Of a stretch of 64,000 bases of DNA, positions 33,861 through 64,000 are shown piece by piece. Each line of letters begins with the position of its first letter. The first letter of the stretch is position 1. The stretch lies in assembly GCF_036365525.1 (NCBI RefSeq), contig NC_090407.1, positions 28,275,860-28,339,859 on the forward strand, in the 5' to 3' direction. The notes beneath the pieces were generated by a model. It was not told where the DNA came from. It saw nothing but the letters and a program-made list of their open reading frames with translations, and did no database searches. This stretch comes from Heterodontus francisci. Taxonomy: Eukaryota. A program made the position numbers and the translations under genes.

Positions 33861-35177
33861 TCTTCTTCTTTGGCCTCCTTGTCTCGAGAGACAATGGGTA
33901 AGCGCCTGGAGGTGGTCAGTGGTTTGTGAAGCAGCGCCTGGAGTGGCTATAAAGGCCAATTCTAGAGCGACAGACTCTTCCACAGGCGCTGCTGATAAAA
34001 TTGGTTGTCAGGGCTGTTACACAGTTGGCTCTCTCCTTGCGCTTCTGTCTTTTTTCCTGCCAACTGCTAAGTCTCTTCGACTCGCCACGCTTTAGCCCCA
34101 CCTTTATGGCTGCCCGCCAGCTCTGGCGATCGCTGGGAACTGACTCCCACGACTTGTGATCAATGTCACAGGACTTCATGTCGTGTTTGCATACGTCTTT
34201 AAAGCGGAGACATGGACGGCCGGTGGGTCTGGTACCAGTGATGAGCTCGCTGTACAATGTGACTTTGGGGATCCTGCCATCTTCCATGCGGCTCACATGG
34301 CCAAGCCATCTCAAGCACTGCTGGCTCAGTAGGGTGTATATGCTGGGGATGTTGGCCACCTCGAGGATTTCTGTGTTGGAGATGCGGTCCTGCCACCTGA
34401 TGCCAAGGATTCTCCGGAAGCAGCGAAGATAAAATGAATTGAGACGTCGCTCTTGGCTGACATACATTGTCCAGGCCTCACGGCCGTAGAGCAAGGTACT
34501 GAGGATACAGGTTTGATACACTCGGACTTTTGTGTTCCGTGTCAGTGCGCCATTTTCCCACACTCTCTTGCCCAGTCTGGACATAGCAGAGGAAGCCTTT
34601 CCCATGCGCTTGTTGATTTCTGCATCGAGAGACAGGTTACTGGTGATAGTTGAGCCTAGGTAGATGAACTCTTGAACCACTTCCAGAGTGTGGTCACCGA
34701 TATTGATGGATGGGGCATTTCTGATGTCCTGTCCCATGATGTTCGTTTTCTTGAGGCTGATGGTTCGGCCAGATTCGTTGCAGGCAGCCGCAAACCTGTT
34801 GATGAGACTCTGCAGACACTCTTCAGTGTGAGATGTTAAAGCAGCATTGTCAGCAAAGATGAGTTCCCTGATGAGGACTTTCTGTACTTTGGTCTTCGCT
34901 CTTAGACGGGCAAGGTTGAACAACCTGCCATCTGATCTTGTGTGGAGGAAAATTCCTTCTTCTGAAGACTTGAACGCATGTGAGAGCAGCAGGGAGAAGA
35001 AAATCCCAAACAGTGTAGGTGCGAGAACACAGCCCTGTTTCACGCCACTCAGCATAGGAAAGGGGTCTGATGAGGCACTGCCATGCTGAATTGTGCTTTT
35101 CATATTGTCATGGAATGAGGTGATGATACTTAGTAGCTTTGGTGGACATCCAATCTTTTCTAGTAGTCTGAAGAAAC
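33861..35177 (-). mobile_element. 5'-truncated RTE LINE, same family as 1453-2556, with a long open ORF
   Basis: 425-aa ORF with GVKQGCVLAPTLF and ELIFADNAAL; (AAG)n tail; candidate 7-bp TSD CAAATAT at 33854-33860 and 35178-35184. Confidence 0.92.
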
Positions 35178-54721: not shown

Positions 54722-55349
54722 AAGTAAAAGATCCCATGGTACTATTTCGAAGCAGAGCAGGGGAGTTCTCCCCAGTGTCCTGGACAATATTTACCCCTCA
54801 ACCAACATCACTGAAACAGATTATCTGATCATTATCACATTGCTGTTTGTGGGAGCTTGCTGTGCACAAATTGGCTGCAGTGCTTCCTACGTTACAACAG
54901 TGACCACACTTCAAAAGTACTTCATTGGCTGTAAAGCACTTCGAGACATCCTGATGTTGTGAAAAGCGCTATGTAAATGCAAGTCTTTCATTTCTATACA
55001 ATTGTACCAATTTATTTGTAGCTTCAAATCCTATAGTTGGGATGTTAAATCCACCACAGATTGAAAACTCATTTCCCTGATCACAACACATGACTCACAC
55101 TGCAACGGTAATGAGTTTTATGTTGCAACATGTTAATGTGAAAGAACACACCCTGTACGTTGATTTTTTATGTTCCTTGCGGAACGCGCCAGTTTCTGAC
55201 TTTGACCCACAATCTCGAACAAACATGTCTGATTCAGCATGAAGTGTTGAAATCATTTATAAAACGACACAAACTCTGCAGTGGTGTTGTGTACCATAGC
55301 CCCAGGGGGAGGGGGCGTGGCGGGATTCGTGCCCAGACACGATTACCAA

Positions 55350-55985
55350 CATGTGCTGCCATGCTGTTGTGTGGAGAGGCCAGATGTTACTTGCTCATAG
55401 CGAAGGAAAACTGGGAAAGAGATGGTGACAAGGTGAGGTAGAGCAAGAAAGGGAAAAACTGCAAGAGAAAGAGCTGTAGAGGAGGCACATGCACATATAC
55501 TCGGAAAGGGAGTCGAAGAGACAGACAGCACTGGGCCGATCTCGTGATCCCTCTTGTGGCTACTTTCAACAGAGCTTCAATCAAAACCTGCAAGCATCTT
55601 GCTGTCTCAGCCACATTAAGCAAGGTAATGAGAGGGTGGTGGTGGGGTATTGGGGATTAATAATCAGCATCAAGAGCACAGGCTCACTAGTGGGTGGAGG
55701 TTTTGGTTTTCCAAGCTAACCCAGCTGCTCTCAAATGCAACACGTGGAGGGCACAGTGTGGGGCAGGGGCCACGGGTGTAACTTTCTGCAGTATGAACAC
55801 AGCCCACAGGCACACGCGAACAGAACCTCACGCTGCAGGTGGACATACGCTCCACGTGTGCTGCTCTGTGGAGATGTCAGAGGCCTGACGCTTCCTCATG
55901 CAAAGGAAAACTGGGAAAGAGGGGAGAGCAAGAGAGGGAAGCCTGCGAGAGAAAGAGCTGTACAGGAGGCACACGCGCATGTACA
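55350..55985 (+). repeat. Diverged ~150-bp direct repeat pair (55350-55500 and 55853-55985)
   Basis: Shared TGTGCTGC, TGTGGAGA, AAGGAAAACTGGGAAAGAG, AGAGCAAGA and GAGAAAGAGCTGTA.AGGAGGCACA. Confidence 0.8.
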
Positions 55986-56149
55986 CACAGAGAATCCGGA
56001 ATGCCTGCATTACATTCTAACCATGAATAAGTCCGAAGGTGGGCACCTACCTTGGTACTGAGGGTCGTGCCACCTAAACTGTCAATGGCAGCATCCGGCA
56101 GGTTGGCAATCGTCAGAAAGCTAGTGTCTCGGGGCCTGACTGAGGTGTG

Positions 56150-56535
56150 TCATTGGGTAACATCCTTGTTTTCAAATCCTTCCATGGCCTCGCCCCTCCC
56201 TATCTCTATGACCTCCTCCAGCCCCACAAGCCTCCACGTTCTCTGTGCTCCTCCAGTCTGGCCTCTCGTGCATCCTCAATTTTAATCGCCCCACCATTGG
56301 CGGCTGTGCCTTCAGCTGCCTGGGCCCTAAGCTCTGCAATTCCCTCCCTATATCTCTGCCTCTTCACCTCTCCTCCCTTACGACATGCCGTAAAACTTAC
56401 CTCTTTGACCAAGATGTTGGTCACCTGCCCTAATACCTCCTATGTGATTTGGTGTCAAATTTTCTTTATTAACATTCCCGTGTAGCGCTTTGGGATGTTT
56501 TGCCATGCTATAGGCCCTATATAAATGCAAATTGT
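56150..56535 (+). mobile_element. L2-clade LINE 3' end
   Basis: ILVFKSFHGLAPPYLYDLLQP...RSL and TIGGCAFSCLGPKLCNSLP; tail CTATATAAATGCAA. Confidence 0.8.
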
Positions 56536-56663
56536 TGATACAGAGATTATACAGCACCATAAAGAGGCACTGCCTCCACACGACAATATCTATTCTTTGT
56601 TCGCTGGATCCTCCTGTGCCACGACACGATTCACACCGAGACACGTCACTGTACCGCTCGTGT

Positions 56664-56673
56664 GTGACGTCAC
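56664..56673. promoter_or_regulatory. Palindromic CRE (GTGACGTCAC) in a CpG-rich patch upstream of DHRS3
   Basis: Full TGACGTCA at 56665-56672 plus half-site CGTCA at 56644-56648. Confidence 0.45.
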
Positions 56674-57263
56674 TGCGAAAAATATGCTGCGTGGTTATTC
56701 TGCTCTCCTGGGTGGTGTCTCTTTAATTAAAGACACAGGCGTCCCCTGATTGTAAAGTGCTGAAAGTGCCTTCCTTAATTTGTTTTAAGAAGAAAAAAAG
56801 TCGCCTTTTAAACAGGAGATGATTTGCCATCCAACGTGCAATCAAGGAGCGCTCCATTGGCTGTAAAGCTTTTCTTTTGGTGGGGGGGGGGGTGAAACGT
56901 CCTGAAAGGCGATATATAAATGCAAGTTTTTTTTGTCTCTTGCAGTCCTGATTGTTATACTTAATGTCAGTCGAGGATGCTTGCTGGGCAGGGGAAAACG
57001 GTGCAGATCCTGGTGCAGGGGGAGAAGTCAGAGGTGGATGCAGGCGAACAGTGTGTGTGTGTTGTCAGAGTTAGAGAAGGAAGGAGAGGGGGAGGGAGAG
57101 AGAGAGAGAGAGAGCCTGCAGTTCTGATGCAGAGACTGGCGTGTTGCTGCTGACTAGAGGGGGGGTGGTGTGTGGGTTGAGGGCTCGGCTTCACACAGTA
57201 GTACCGAGCGGATCAGCTCCCTCCCGACACTTAGACTCGTCAATCAGGATTAATGGACTGCTG

Positions 57264-57270
57264 TATAAAA
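57264..57270 (+). promoter_or_regulatory. Candidate TATA box of DHRS3
   Basis: TATAAAA ~380 bp upstream of the conserved ATG; true TSS unknown. Confidence 0.3.
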
Positions 57271-57339
57271 CCTCACCGCGCCTTTGCGAACACACACACA
57301 AACGTTTCCAGCTCTTTTATTTATATGTATGTGCTTTTC

Positions 57340-57340
<1 letters not shown>

Positions 57341-57370
<30 letters not shown>
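57341..57370. repeat. (TG)15 microsatellite; a second (TG)n at 57598-57618
   Basis: Read directly from the sequence. Confidence 0.95.
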
Positions 57371-57371
<1 letters not shown>

Positions 57372-57646
57372 CTGACTGGTCTGCAACGATTAACCTCTGT
57401 GTGATCCCGGAGAACAGCAAAGAGAAGAAAGAAATAAAATATTGGAAGGACCATGTTTTTTTAAACCAAGTGAAATTGATTGAACAGGACGGGCTCAGCC
57501 AGTGAAATTGACACGCACTTTAAAGGGGCAAAAAAAAGTTTTTTTTATTGGGGGGGGTTGAACTTTTCTGCTGCAGGGAACCGGGTGCAGTTCCTCTTGT
57601 GTGTGTGTGTGTGTGTGTTTGTTTGTTGTTTAGGATGAGCCCGGAG

Positions 57647-57841
57647 ATGGACTGGAGGAGTCTGACTTCGCTGCTGCTGTTCCCGGTACAAATGGCCTTT
57701 TACGTGGTGAAAGCTGCCGTCTTGCTGCTGCTGCCGGCCAGGCTGCGGGAACTGAGCCGGGAAACTGTCCTCATCACCGGGGGAGGCAGAGGCATCGGTC
57801 GCCACCTGGCCCGGGAGTTCGCCAAGCAAGGAGCGAGAAAG
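57647..57841 (+). CDS. DHRS3: Dehydrogenase/reductase 3 (retSDR1), coding exon 1; the gene continues beyond the window
   Basis: [65 protein letters not shown]|GTGAGT; SDR TGxxxGxG motif; 65 codons matching the recalled human N-terminus (MVWKRLGALVMFPLQM...GARK). In-frame upstream ATG at 57635. Confidence 0.95.
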
Positions 57842-60800
57842 GTGAGTCTCTGAATGTAAGGTAGCCCTGGCCCATTTTTGTTACTCTGCAAATGCATTTG
57901 GGGATGAAGTAACCAGCAAGTGATGGGTTACAGAGTTAATATTAATATCAGAGTTACAATTGCAATGCTAGATCACGGTTAGGAGCAGGGCAGTTTGTAC
58001 AAATGTGTTTGCATTCGCTCCGGAAGGATTTGCTTTTTGTTTTTGAATCTTTGAAATAAAGCTGCAATTGTTTCTGACAGTGAGGGTTAGGGGAAGCAGG
58101 ATGACTGTGTGTGTGTCAAAGGGTGAGGAAACCTGGAGCAACGCTGAAGCCTGTTTGCCACAAGAATTTTCCACATTCTCTAGTGTTATCAACGTGGGAT
58201 TGTTGCTGTGTTTGAGTTTAACTTTTAGTGACACTGTGTGTGTCTGTGTGCACGTTTAGCATTTGCTCCGAGCAGTTTACTGTTCCTAATACCAACCTGC
58301 TAATGGGCACATCATTCCTGGTTAGAGACATCTGGGCATGTTAAATTGCATAAAAAGTGCTGATTTCTCTTGTGTGTCGCCAGACCTGCTGTGTTTTTCC
58401 AGTATTTTCTGGTTTTATCTCAGTTCCAGTAGTTTGTGGTAAAACTGGCTATGGTTAATTCAACTTATGTAGGACACTTTTGACTGTGTAGTTATTTAAA
58501 TAACCCGGTCTGATTCTTCTGCAATGGGCCGATCTAAGAGCTGCCTCTGGGCTCAGGGATTTGGGGAGAAGCAGCCAGGCTTTCCCCTGCCGCTGCTGGT
58601 TACTTCGACAGCCCTGTTGAAGGGAGAGTGTGGGTGAGACAGGATTAGATTTGCTTCTACAACCTCTCACTCCCCACCAGACCAGTGTAGCCTGTCAACA
58701 CTTGCTGTCTACACTCACGTGGAGAATGGGAGCCTAGTCTAGCAGTGTCTGCAGGCGAAGAGGCAAGAAACCGCAACAGATCTGGTGCCGTGGGAGTTGC
58801 TTGGTAGGAACAGGAGGAGATCGTTCAGCCCCTCTGTAGCCTGTTCCACCATTCAGTTTGACCATGATTGATCTGTACCCCGCCTTGGTTCTGTACCCTT
58901 AATAGCCTTGCCTAACCAAAAAAATCTCAGTCTCAGTTTTGAAATTTTCAAGTGATCTAGCCTCGGCTTTTTGGGGGAGAGTTTTCAGATTTCCACTACC
59001 CTTTGATTGAAAAAGTGCCTCCTGCCATCAACCCTGAACAGCCTTGCTCAAATACAAAGGGTGCGCTCCCTCTTTGTTCAGGACTGCCCCCGCCAGAGAA
59101 TATAGATTATTTCGAAGATGTCTTCAAACACACAATTGGCAGATCACTATCCAGTTATAGAATCAACGCCCCTCGTGATCATGAAACATAACTGCTTTTG
59201 TCAAACTGTGATTTTTAACAATATCATTGTTAGGCAGCAAGCAGAGATTGTGACATGAGCATTTCACGTGGCTTGGAGGCCCTAAAACGTTCCTTACTGT
59301 GAGTACCTGTCAGGAAAATGTCTCTGTTGTAATCAGCTAGTTATAAACCTATTGCTTGACAAAGTGCACCTTGGCCATCAGCCTGGACGCTCTCTGGTGC
59401 TGAGAGTGTCAAACTGCATGGCTTGTCATGGAGTATTACACTCAGACGAGGTACTGGAGGGTGCTTGGGGCCTTGGGCTCCCTCCCCATGATTCCAGCTG
59501 AGTAATAGAGGATTGAAAAGTGGAGCTTACTCTAATAATTAGCTCCCTTCAATCCACTGAGCAATGTCACCAACAAAATACTGACTTGGTTTCAATATTG
59601 AAACAAAAAGATGAAATTAATTGAAAGGTTTGCCTCGTTGACAGAGTAAGGAATATCCAGGAGGGATTTGCAGGCTGGCATCTAAACGAGGAGACTTGTG
59701 TCCATTTAATGAAACTCAGGATTTAAGTTGGGCTTTGCTTTCATTCAAGTAATGAATTACTTTTCTAAATTGTGTGGGACCTGGAGGTACGCAGTAGCTG
59801 ATGTGCTTTTCAAAGTTGGTTTTGCAACTGCTGCAGTTGTGAAAGCTGGAACTACCATCTCACCTGCTTGGCTGCAACATGCCAACCTGATACCAGTTTG
59901 TTCTGCACCTTGTACTAACATTGTGCCAGGGCACGAGTCCCTGTGAACCAGCTCCTCCCTGGTAATGTGACCAAGGTTGGACAGTGAATGTTGGAAAGTT
60001 AATTGGGCAGAATTTGGATCTTCTCTGCCTCCTCATGCAAATAGTTTATTAACACTTACTCTTTAGCACAGAAAGACTGGACACTTGGACTGAGCATGTT
60101 CAGTACCTGTGGAGCCTGAATTCCAGCACAGGGGGCTTCCCACGCCTTCCCCAGCACAGGGAGAGCCCAGAAAGTGTTCCTTCCCTTCCCTCCCATGTCC
60201 CCAGCGGTAAAGTCAGTGGCAATGGGGAAAGCAAATGCGTGCTGATCCCACAAGCTGCCATGTTGTATCTACTATGGGTGGGTTTAGATGTCAATCCTGG
60301 CCTACCCCAGATGACAGTTTTGGTGTGTGGCTCAGTAACATAACCAGAGGGACCTGAACCATCACCAGACCGACTTTATCCAGATTTAGGTTACCAACGT
60401 CATTGAGGACATGCTGGGCTGTGCAGTAACCAATCTGCAATAGAACCTAGTGAGCGGGGCTCTGAATGGGCCTGGCCTTTACCGATACAGAGCCTGCCTG
60501 ATACCAGCAACTTCGATTATACTCGTAGTGACTAATTTGTACATGGGCTGCCAATCTCTGGTGAGGCTACCAGCATCACTTGGTGAGTCAGTCGGTTAAC
60601 GCAAAGCCCAGTGTGGTGCTGGGGTGTATACGGCAAGAAAGATCCCAAGTTCTGACACCGATTTCTTTTTCTTCTTTTTTTGTGCTGAGTCAGCGGATCT
60701 CACTTCGGGGCCCCAGAATTTGCCTCAGTGCCCCTGGACAGCAGAGCAGAGGGAAATCAGCCCGAGTTCCTGCTTGTGATTACTAATCCAGTGACTCTGG

Positions 60801-62715
60801 CTGGAAAGTGTGAATGTCGGGTGAGGACAGAACCGGCCTTGGCAGTTATGTGTTTCCTGGTCGAATAGCCTTCTGGTAGCCAACTACTTAGGCCTACCGG
60901 AAACCTCCATGAATCGCACCATGCAGAAGCTTGATTTGATGCAGAGCTGCAGAAGCTGGTCACCGTACTTATAATGACTTCATCCAGTCATTGAATTCAA
61001 GCCTTGTGGAGCAGTTTGCTTGTGTATAGGAGGTTGGGGCTGCGGTGTGAATCTGTATTGGGTGCTGGGAGGGAGCGGTTGTTTTGGTTGTGGGATAGTG
61101 AGATGTTTTGGTTTAAATTGATGCCCGGAGGAAGATAAACTGCTTGGAAGTGATGTGAAGTTTAAATGCTTGGGACTGGTCTTGGGAACCTCCAAACATT
61201 GGAACTCCTCTCCACAGCTATATTTTTTGAATCATTTTTCTTTATTCATGGGATGTGGGTGTCGCGGCTAGGCTAGCATTTGTTGCCCGTCTCTAATAGC
61301 CCTTGAGAAAGTGGTTTTGGAACTCTGTAGTCTGGTGAAAGTATTGCCACAGTCCTGTCAGAGAGGGAGTTCCAGGATTTTGACCTAGCGACGATGAAGG
61401 AACAGTGATACATTTCCAAGTCAGAATGATGATTGGAAGGGATTTACCTCGCTTTTCATTGAATTCTTTTATAGTAAGTGTAAACAATTATTACCATTTT
61501 GACTGCACTTTTCCTTAAGTATATATTGTCGGTGCCAGCTTTACTCCTCTCTGTCTGTCTCTTGATATTGATTCTGCCTGTCGTAGTAAAGCTGTGGGAC
61601 CTCCTGCAAGTGTCTATTAATCATGTGTGGACCCGGGACAGTGAACCCTGGATTTTGCCATCAGGACAGCCTCATTAATTTTAACCGGGTTAACCCTGGC
61701 ATTGAGATAACGCAGATTGGAAGATAGCGGCTGTTCAGCCATTGGAGGCATCACAGCTGAGTCTGAGCCTGACCCTTGACCCTGCACGCTCTCGTCCATT
61801 CAGGGTCAATCAGGAGTGGGAGTCATGGCAGTTTCTTTTTTTCTACTTTTTATTTGGGGGAAACTGAGGCCAGGAGTAGTTTCCCACCCGTTGTGCTGGC
61901 TGAGATCAGCAGCTACCTCAGCAAAGAACCTTGCTTTCCCTCTTTCTCTTTTCACCTAACCCCCCCAGCCCCCACCCCACACCCCACCAACCCCATTGGT
62001 ACTTCAATAATGTAGAGAGTAAGGTTCTGGCGTTGGTGACAATTTGCATTTATGTAGTGCCTGCAATGTGGTAAAATGTCACCGTAGTGTTGTTAGCCCA
62101 CATTACAAATATGATGATATCTGACCAAGAGCTTGGTGGAAAGTGGCAGGTCTTAAGGAGTGTCTTCGAGGAGGAGTGACGCAGAGATGTTTAGGGAGAG
62201 AATTCCAAAGTTCGGAGCCCTGGCAGCTGCAGATTCGCTATTGGCGGTGGGGTGATTAAAATCGGGGGATGCGCAAGTGGCCGGAATGAGCAAGGCACAG
62301 GCAGGCTACTGCTATTGTGCGTCCACTGCAGCTTCCGTTTGCAGCATGGAATTGGGAGGGTTAAAAACAGAAATCAGTTTGACATAGTCAACTGCATCGC
62401 AACTCAAATCCTGCCTTTTTACAATTCATTCATTCAAAGGAGCAGTCTTTCTCCTGAATTGATCTTTCCTTTAGCTCTGCCATCTTGCGTTCTCTCTCTC
62501 TTTCTCTCACTGCTTTTGTTTTACTCTCTCTTGCTCTTTCTAACTCTTCCAGTTTCTTTCTTTTTGCTTTCTTTCGTGCTTTATTCGCGCTATCTTTTAG
62601 CTCTCTCTCTCTTTTTACTCTTCCTGTCTCTCTCTGTTTTTGTTCTGTCTTTAAACGGCTTCTGGGTTTCTCTCGAGGAGGGGCGGGAGCACCTTGCAGT
62701 TTAGTCACAGCCTTG

Positions 62716-62732
62716 GGTTCAACAGCAGGTCA
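62716..62732 (+). promoter_or_regulatory. DR5 retinoic acid response element in DHRS3 intron 1
   Basis: GGTTCA-ACAGC-AGGTCA, a perfect RGKTCA(n5)RGKTCA in non-repetitive, CpG-enriched sequence. Confidence 0.7.
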
Positions 62733-64000
62733 GCCGAGTGCTGATGATGTCATTAATCTTGTTTACCACTTAAAGAGGAAACGCACGCTCAAGAGGCAGG
62801 GGATAGAGTGGGTGGGCAGGGGGAGCAAATGCACGAGGGGAGGGGGCAAACTGGTTGCAGATGGTGGGGGGGGGGGGGGGGGGGTTGCAGTTCCACCTCA
62901 TTCGGACCACTGTTGCGGACGCCCGTCAGTCCCTCCCTTAAAGACGCGAGCAGAAACCTTTATCGTAGGTTAAGCCAAATTTTTTATGATCAGTTAACAG
63001 AAGTGTAAGGCATTCTGTAAATAAACCTGATCGGAAGGAGGACAACAGGTTTTACAGTTTATTGGGACCGTCAGACCTTGGAATGCTGGGTTATTGAGCC
63101 AGAACGTCGAGCAAAGGCAGTCGATATTTTAATGTCGCTGTACATTGCTGAGGCATTTATTGCCTTTATTTTGTAATTGCATATATTTAAAGTGAAAGCC
63201 ATGTACTCTGATAGATTAATTTTAGAATTCCAGTAAGTCTGGATGTTCCCAAATGGAATACCATTTCTTCTCAGGAATCCACAGATTCCCAGCCACCCTT
63301 TGACATCTCCCATTCCTTACGTGTGATCCTCATCAGTAGAAATTGAAAGGCTATTTGACTGTGTCGGACTTCGCCACTGAACTTGGTCTTGTTTAGACTT
63401 AGTGACTGCCCATGACTGACCCTGGGCTGGAATGGGATGGCTGGATTAGTGATCAGGAGTTGAGGGTGCTGGCTGATTCCCTTTCCTTAGCAGAATCCCG
63501 AGACCGATTGTAAATATTTCCCCTGTGGCCTTGACTGAGATCAGCTGATTGATACAGAACTATGAGTCAAAAGTACACTGAGCAGTAAATTTACCAAAAG
63601 TGTGTGTGTGTGTGGAGAGAGTGGGAGCTAAAGTGATCTAATCAGTCATTGGTATCTCCTTGTAAGGAAGTGCCCATCATTTTCACAACGATCATTTTTC
63701 TTTTGCTTCATTTTCCTCCCGTTTAAAACAAAATATGAAAATAGATCCTTCATATGTAATTATCAAACATTATTCTCAAATACTCATGTGTTTTTGTGAC
63801 CATACCCAAGTTAAGCCCTGTGCCCAGTTCTAAGAATTCTTGAGCTCTTCCTGCACTGCATTCCTGCCAAATGTTCAAAGTCTATCCCCACATTCGGCAC
63901 ATCACCTCACAGTCCAAAAGCAATGATGTTGGCTTCCCCAGTGCTGGCCGTGTTACTCATTGTATTACAGGGAGGGGGAGATACAGAATGGTGCAGTCTA

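What the first reader, a model, noticed from the sequence alone, without database searches (positions are those of the whole stretch)
62640..62970. Perfect DR5 RARE in a CpG-rich intronic island of DHRS3: candidate ancient retinoic-acid feedback enhancer
Seen: GGTTCAacagcAGGTCA at 62716-62732, ~4.9 kb into intron 1, in unique CpG-enriched sequence with a GC box (GGGGCGGG, ~62679), between a long pyrimidine tract and a ~20-nt G run. It is the only perfect DR5 I spotted in the window. Established: DHRS3 reduces retinaldehyde and is induced by retinoic acid as negative feedback; RAR/RXR binds DR5. Inference: this element mediates that feedback in a shark, implying the loop dates to early jawed vertebrates.
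Basis: partly seen in the sequence, partly recalled or inferred. Interest (0 to 1): 0.7.

Follow-up and report, generated by a model that had tools for sequence, protein, structure and literature searches.

The report
Conserved retinoic-acid switch in shark DHRS3
The first intron of a shark-type fish's DHRS3 gene holds a perfect retinoic-acid-receptor motif inside a short block of DNA also kept in three other species, so it likely helps vitamin A signalling switch on its own brake, as one of several such sites in a feedback loop already known from mouse and zebrafish.

Summary
The DR5 is real (62716-62732, 4.87 kb into DHRS3 intron 1), but the motif alone is not beyond chance: 22 of 100 shuffles hold one, and the genome has 40,462. 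Conservation is what supports it. Contigs of three other organisms align on one single-copy block of about 107 bases (62675-62786; 97%, 97% and about 89% alike) with no listed change in either half-site, while the flanks align at about 86% or not at all. It is not a CpG island (observed/expected 0.57; 2 CpGs in the block). It is one of six non-repeat strict DR5s in 95 kb of the locus; a second constrained pair lies 21 bases past the window's end. The site that dates to early jawed vertebrates is another one, 90 kb downstream inside VPS13D, matching a published mouse Dhrs3 pair (17/17, 15/17); this scan had already noted that cluster in two other genomes, but not the intron-1 block. Mouse has an RAR-bound intron-1 DR5 (cRE5); orthology could not be tested. 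Verdict: likely a genuine RARE enhancer, a new member of a known kind; binding and activity untested.

The parts
57635..57841 (+). DHRS3 exon 1, coding part (69 codons, phase-0 donor at 57842); likely target gene
57842..64000 (+). DHRS3 intron 1 (runs on past the window; 10,401 bases in all)
   Evidence: tblastn of shark and coelacanth DHRS3 on the extended locus; splice sites printed
62675..62786 (.). Single-copy conserved non-coding block; candidate enhancer core
   Evidence: organisms B and C align 62675-62781 with 3 other letters in 107; organism D aligns 62686-62786 with 6 other letters and 5 gap letters; one match in the genome
62716..62732 (+). Strict DR5 (two RGKTCA half-sites, 5-base spacer); candidate RXR/RAR site
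   Evidence: no listed change in either half-site in B, C or D; one spacer change (62726) in B
62680..62687 (+). GC box (Sp/KLF-type; label recalled)
   Evidence: inside the aligned piece of B and C, mostly outside that of D
62748..62773 (+). Possible co-factor motifs in the 3' half of the block: TALE-type, homeodomain core, Forkhead-type (62760-62766), NKX-type (62767-62773); labels recalled
   Evidence: D changes 62751, which breaks the TALE-type motif; no listed change in the Forkhead-type site
62866..62884 (+). Run of 19 G; outside the conserved block, probably not part of the element

Best explanation
The DR5 at 62716-62732 lies in a single-copy, conserved block of about 110 bases in DHRS3 intron 1 and is likely a retinoic-acid response element that an RXR/RAR pair binds to raise DHRS3 transcription when retinoic acid is high. 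Shown: the motif, its place, its single copy, its conservation in three other organisms, and five further non-repeat strict DR5s across DHRS3 and the neighbouring VPS13D. Established in mouse and zebrafish: RA induces Dhrs3 directly through RARs, and DHRS3 turns retinaldehyde back into retinol. Inferred: the shark receptor binds here, neighbouring Forkhead/homeodomain-type motifs would set the tissue, and this site would act together with the other DR5s rather than alone.
For: Block conservation: B and C 3 of 107 letters differ against 14.0% and 13.0% in the best-aligning listed flank pieces (binomial P 1e-4 and 3e-4, before correcting for about 28 windows); D aligns over the DR5 with insertions on both sides of it but none in it. 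B-D were found through the distal element, not through this one. Locus enrichment: 6 non-repeat strict DR5 in 95 kb, 0.64 expected, P 6e-5 with the span chosen afterwards; 7 in 264 kb, 1.8 expected, P 0.002. The second intron-1 pair is also constrained: none of 15 listed changes of organism C falls in its two 17-mers, P 0.02. The distal pair matches the mouse Dhrs3 RAREs of PMC7259794 Table 2 and its architecture occurs once in 6 Gb. Mouse intron-1 cRE5: RAR-alpha ChIP-qPCR, RA-agonist-induced eRNA, DR5 conserved mouse-human (PMC11808460).
Against: No binding, chromatin or reporter data for any cartilaginous fish. The whole block is conserved, so constraint cannot be pinned on the DR5 rather than on its neighbours. 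Each other organism rests on one contig (depth 3.35, 3.9, 10.7); 3 of the 6 runs laid on the site (X6, X15, X18) did not cover it; not every differing letter was listed (B 2 of 3, C 0 of 3, D 3 of 6). B and C share many letters against this genome and are not independent. Organism names are coded, so the depth in time is unknown. A strict DR5 is common (6.7 per Mb; at least 10,587 of 40,462 sit in one repeat). The mouse region-3, -4 and -5 primers match the shark intron no better than their shuffles. In mouse the intron-1 site is weaker than two promoter sites.
Confidence: 0.68

Rival explanations
1. The block is a real enhancer, but it is read mainly by other factors (COUP-TF/NR2F or other nuclear receptors on the same half-sites, or Forkhead/homeodomain factors), and RA contributes little.
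For: Conservation spans about 107 bases, not just the 17 of the DR5; Forkhead- and NKX-type motifs are present (labels recalled); PMC3634737 lists conserved NR2F1 and PPARG:RXRA sites for mouse Dhrs3 as well as DR5.
Against: Perfect DR5 spacing kept in four organisms; DR5, not DR1 or DR2, is what is enriched across the unique DNA of the locus; DHRS3 is among the strongest direct RA targets in mouse and zebrafish.
Confidence: 0.2
2. The DR5 is a chance motif in slowly evolving intron sequence with no function.
For: 35% of 64-kb windows hold a strict DR5; sharks evolve slowly (recalled); the piece tables were cut, so other equally conserved blocks may be unseen.
Against: Sequence just 3' of the block in B, C and D does not align at 80% (loose ends), listed flank pieces differ at 13-14%, and both intron-1 DR5 sites fall in the least-changed stretches.
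Confidence: 0.07
3. The block is conserved as RNA: an alternative micro-exon (62711-62728 has an AG before and a GT after it and would keep the frame), an internal first exon, or a structured non-coding RNA.
For: A long pyrimidine tract lies upstream and splice dinucleotides flank an 18-base in-frame stretch.
Against: The change at 62726 in organism B would make the last codon a stop; none of the DHRS3 homologues fetched carries the predicted peptide; no Rfam match at E up to 1; folding z-scores +0.5 and +1.3. RNA reads were not examined.
Confidence: 0.05

Closest known systems
Mouse Dhrs3 intron-1 element cRE5 (Varshosaz et al., FEBS Lett 2024, PMC11808460)
   Same: DR5 in intron 1 of the same gene; one of several RAREs at the locus; conserved between related species (mouse-human there, four coded organisms here).
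   Different: cRE5 has RAR-alpha ChIP and eRNA data; this site has none. Its sequence is only in a figure that is not held, so orthology is untested; shark intron 1 has two constrained DR5 regions, either or neither of which could be the counterpart. No DR1/2/5/8 with at most one mismatch was found at 55000-57700, where mouse has its two strongest sites.
Mouse distal Dhrs3 DR5 pair, mm10 chr4:145034810 and 145034847 (Berenguer et al., PLoS Biol 2020, PMC7259794)
   Same: Same motif class and presumed target. Its counterpart is present in this genome 90 kb downstream of the finding, inside a late VPS13D intron (17/17 and 15/17 letters; starts 38 apart against 37).
   Different: It is a different element from the finding. 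The paper lists it as conserved to frog but not fish; here it reaches a cartilaginous fish.
Classical DR5 RAREs of RA feedback genes (Rarb, Cyp26a1) and zebrafish RAR peaks at dhrs3a/dhrs3b (PMC8608873, PMC11040003)
   Same: Same half-site pair and spacing; same negative-feedback logic with several sites per gene.
   Different: Those are experimentally bound; whether zebrafish has an intron-1 peak was not seen (2 of 11 supplement rows read, both downstream of dhrs3b).

Membership tests
DR5 retinoic-acid response element | Two RGKTCA half-sites in direct orientation, 5 bases apart | tested here: met
DR5 retinoic-acid response element | Half-sites under evolutionary constraint in single-copy DNA (supporting feature) | tested here: met
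   one contig per organism, names coded
DR5 retinoic-acid response element | Bound by RAR/RXR | not testable with these tools
   no chromatin or binding data for this organism
DR5 retinoic-acid response element | Confers RA-dependent transcription that needs the half-sites | not testable with these tools
   needs a reporter or deletion
DR5 retinoic-acid response element | Linked gene is RA-induced in this organism | not testable with these tools
   gene is DHRS3; induction shown in mouse and zebrafish papers only; none of 4 papers listed for dhrs3 + retinoic acid + shark addresses it by title or abstract start
Orthologue of mouse Dhrs3 cRE5 | DR5 in Dhrs3 intron 1 | tested here: met
Orthologue of mouse Dhrs3 cRE5 | Sequence alignable with the mouse element | tested here: inconclusive
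   only the paper's primers were available; they lie up to 500 bases from the site and scored no better than shuffles
CpG island (length over 200, G+C over 50%, observed/expected over 0.6; thresholds recalled) | CpG observed/expected over 0.6 | tested here: not met
   0.57 for 62640-62970, 0.32 for the conserved block
Structured non-coding RNA | Rfam match or fold stronger than shuffles | tested here: not met
Coding micro-exon | Open frame kept in relatives and peptide seen in homologues | tested here: not met

The most novel reading that the evidence does not exclude
This block is the orthologue of mouse cRE5, and together with the second intron-1 pair and the VPS13D cluster it shows that the whole multi-RARE landscape that lets retinoic acid induce its own brake DHRS3 was fixed before sharks and bony vertebrates split, tying DHRS3 to VPS13D as a conserved regulatory block.
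Probability: 0.3. Interest if true: 0.45.

Novelty: new member of a known kind. Interest (0 to 1): 0.33.

Why it matters
If it holds, it gives a small, testable map of the DHRS3 feedback enhancers in the most distant jawed-vertebrate outgroup to mammals. Sites kept from shark to mouse are the best candidates for the ones that matter in development and for non-coding variants behind DHRS3-related malformations. The loop itself and RAREs at Dhrs3 are already described, so this extends a known circuit rather than revealing a new one.

Tried and rejected
CpG island: rejected. Structured RNA: no Rfam match, no fold. Micro-exon: stop in organism B, no peptide in homologues. Repeat origin: one match in the genome, no cover in a self-comparison of 444 kb. 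Link to mouse cRE5 by primers: 8 primers, both strands, none above its shuffles. Link to bony vertebrates through host DNA in metagenomes: 44 of 44 matches to a DR5-plus-Forkhead pattern were unrelated outside the pattern (best score 34 of 440); that collection may hold no vertebrate orthologue, so this is no evidence of absence. Runs without cover of the block: X6 and X18, X15; contigs show presence, not absence. Literature: a search for the 17-mer, its complement and the distal 17-mer found only PMC7259794, for the distal one; RARE + cartilaginous fish + DR5 and RAR + DR5 + shark + gnathostome gave 0 papers; dhrs3 + vps13d + enhancer gave 6 unrelated papers by title; one search gave 3 unrelated papers. 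The genome-wide list of conserved DR5s (Lalevee 2011) is not held. The VPS13 C-terminal profile did not hit this contig; VPS13D was placed instead.

Full report
Observation. The 17-mer is at 62716-62732 on the + strand and is the only strict DR5 in the window. The exon at 57635-57841 encodes the start of DHRS3: the five best hits among 149 are shark proteins, 87-91% identical, four of them named short-chain dehydrogenase/reductase 3, so the host is inferred to be a shark-type fish. tblastn on the window plus 200 kb of neighbouring DNA maps six exons and an intron 1 of 10,401 bases. The motif lies 4,874 bases into that intron. GC box, pyrimidine tract and a run of 19 G are as described.

The motif alone is weak. 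22 of 100 shuffles of the window hold a strict DR5. The genome holds 40,462, 6.7 per Mb, so about 35% of 64-kb windows have one; at least 10,587 of them sit in one repeat. The stretch is not a CpG island: observed/expected 0.57, reached by 8.6% of same-size windows, and only 2 of its 14 CpGs lie in the conserved part.

Conservation makes the case. A search of sequencing runs with the distal element described below returned 24 runs, among them DNA of three other coded organisms, B, C and D. I laid 6 of these 24 runs on the intron-1 site at 80% likeness. Three covered it, one for each organism: B (X8) and C (X10) on 62675-62781 with 3 other letters in 107, D (X14) on 62686-62786 with 6 other letters and 5 gap letters; X6, X15 and X18 did not cover it. 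No listed change touches a half-site. B changes one spacer base (62726) and one base upstream (62713); D has insertions after 62705 and 62741 and substitutions at 62741, 62745 and 62751. The tool lists only differences away from a piece's ends, so 1, 3 and 3 differences are unplaced; I infer that they lie near the ends. Beyond both ends the contigs run on unlike this genome. In 3 kb around the site, the best-aligning listed unique pieces differ at 14.0% (B) and 13.0% (C), giving binomial P of 1e-4 and 3e-4 for 3 or fewer in 107, before a correction of about 28-fold; the piece table was cut (2,030 rows not shown, many at repeats). B and C share many letters against this genome, so they count as about one lineage and D as a second. 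That B-D are cartilaginous fishes is inferred from shared repeats, not shown. The block is single copy, has no Rfam match and does not fold better than shuffles.

It is one site of several. In 444 kb around the gene there are 8 strict DR5s against 3.0 expected. Two lie in or beside repeats. The other six are in unique DNA within 95 kb from the DHRS3 start codon: two in intron 1, one in intron 4, three in VPS13D introns; 0.64 are expected, P 6e-5, with the span chosen after the fact. The second intron-1 site starts 21 bases past the window's end (G000:C37:28339880-28339896, minus strand) and has a one-mismatch DR5 29 bases beyond it; B and C align there at 87-89%, and none of the 15 listed changes of C falls in the two 17-mers (P 0.02). 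B-only changes there were cut from the table.

Age. PMC7259794 (passages and section 11 with Table 2 read) lists two mouse Dhrs3 DR5s in an RA-dependent H3K27ac peak, conserved to frog but not fish. Both are in this genome at C37:28428574-28428628, 17 of 17 and 15 of 17 letters, 38 bases apart against 37 in mouse. The first 17-mer with its exact spacer and free half-sites has 13 matches in the genome, but the pair architecture has 1 match in 6 Gb and 0 in the reversed control. A third, one-mismatch DR5 precedes them. The cluster lies in a late intron of VPS13D, which faces DHRS3 tail to tail; that the mouse pair is also inside Vps13d is recalled, not from a call. B, C and D hold 56-58% of its sampled words. 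So a DHRS3-linked RARE does date to the shark-mammal split, but it is this distal cluster. I found it before opening the scan's notes; two earlier notes (e1-9845133, e1-9502656) report the same cluster in other genomes, and none reports the intron-1 block.

What is known. PMC11808460 (passages and parts 3 and 6 of 6 read; figure and supplements not seen) shows mouse Dhrs3 to be a direct RAR target with three RAR-alpha-bound regions: two about 1.0-1.4 kb upstream and cRE5 in intron 1, whose DR5 is among the best conserved between mouse and human but is the weakest of the three by ChIP and eRNA. PMC8608873 (passages and a few supplement rows) and PMC11040003 (passages) show RA induction and RAR peaks at zebrafish dhrs3a and dhrs3b; vps13d is also RA-induced there. 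PMC8950952, PMC3458940, PMC3634737 and PMC12774775 (passages only) agree that Dhrs3 is a strong RA target. I could not obtain the cRE5 sequence, so whether the shark block is its orthologue is open; the published primers do not match the shark intron above shuffles, which says little as they lie up to 500 bases from the site. No paper on a shark DHRS3 RARE came up; subscription journals are mostly not searched.

Mechanism. Shown: a perfect DR5 in a constrained, single-copy intronic block of DHRS3, within a DR5-rich locus. Established elsewhere: RXR/RAR binds DR5 and RA induces DHRS3, which lowers retinaldehyde and so RA. Inferred: the shark receptor binds this site and, with the other intron-1 pair and the VPS13D sites, raises DHRS3 in proportion to RA; nearby Forkhead/NKX-type motifs (labels recalled) may restrict the tissue. 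I put this at 0.68. Rivals: an enhancer read mainly by other factors (0.2), a chance motif (0.07), an RNA-level element (0.05).

Verdict. A likely real RARE enhancer and a new member of a well-known kind. Interest 0.33.

Noticed in passing
G000:C37:28339880-28339942 (L033:2021-2083), 21 bases past the window's end: Second DR5 region in DHRS3 intron 1: a strict DR5 and a one-mismatch DR5 on the minus strand, 29 bases apart; listed changes in organism C fall around but not in them. An equally good candidate for the counterpart of mouse cRE5.
   Followed up: partly
G000:C37:28428540-28428628 (L021:8681-8769): Three DR5s within 89 bases in a late VPS13D intron; two match the published mouse Dhrs3 pair (17/17, 15/17); held by three other organisms. 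Already noted by this scan in two other genomes.
   Followed up: yes
G000:C37:28347340, 28375419 and 28385807: Three more strict DR5s in unique DNA (DHRS3 intron 4; two in the long VPS13D intron near its 3' end); conservation not tested.
   Followed up: no
L022:5609-5737 and genome-wide: At least 10,587 of the genome's 40,462 strict DR5s share one 20-base context that reads as the end of a LINE-type reverse-transcriptase frame (CR1-like label recalled): a repeat has spread perfect DR5 motifs through this genome, a possible source of new RA-responsive sites and a trap for motif scans.
   Followed up: partly
window 1738 and 34665-34678; L020: The same DR2 (with a DR8 beside it) recurs three times in 264 kb, probably repeat-borne.
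   Followed up: no
window 55000-57700: No DR1, DR2, DR5 or DR8 with at most one mismatch upstream of the DHRS3 start codon, where mouse has its two strongest RAR-bound sites; the promoter sites may be younger or more degenerate than the intronic and distal ones.
   Followed up: partly
run X15: A very small run (51 million letters, kind not on record) holds 56% of the distal cluster's words but did not cover the intron-1 block; if it is an enrichment library this could reflect open chromatin at the distal site, but its kind is unknown.
   Followed up: no
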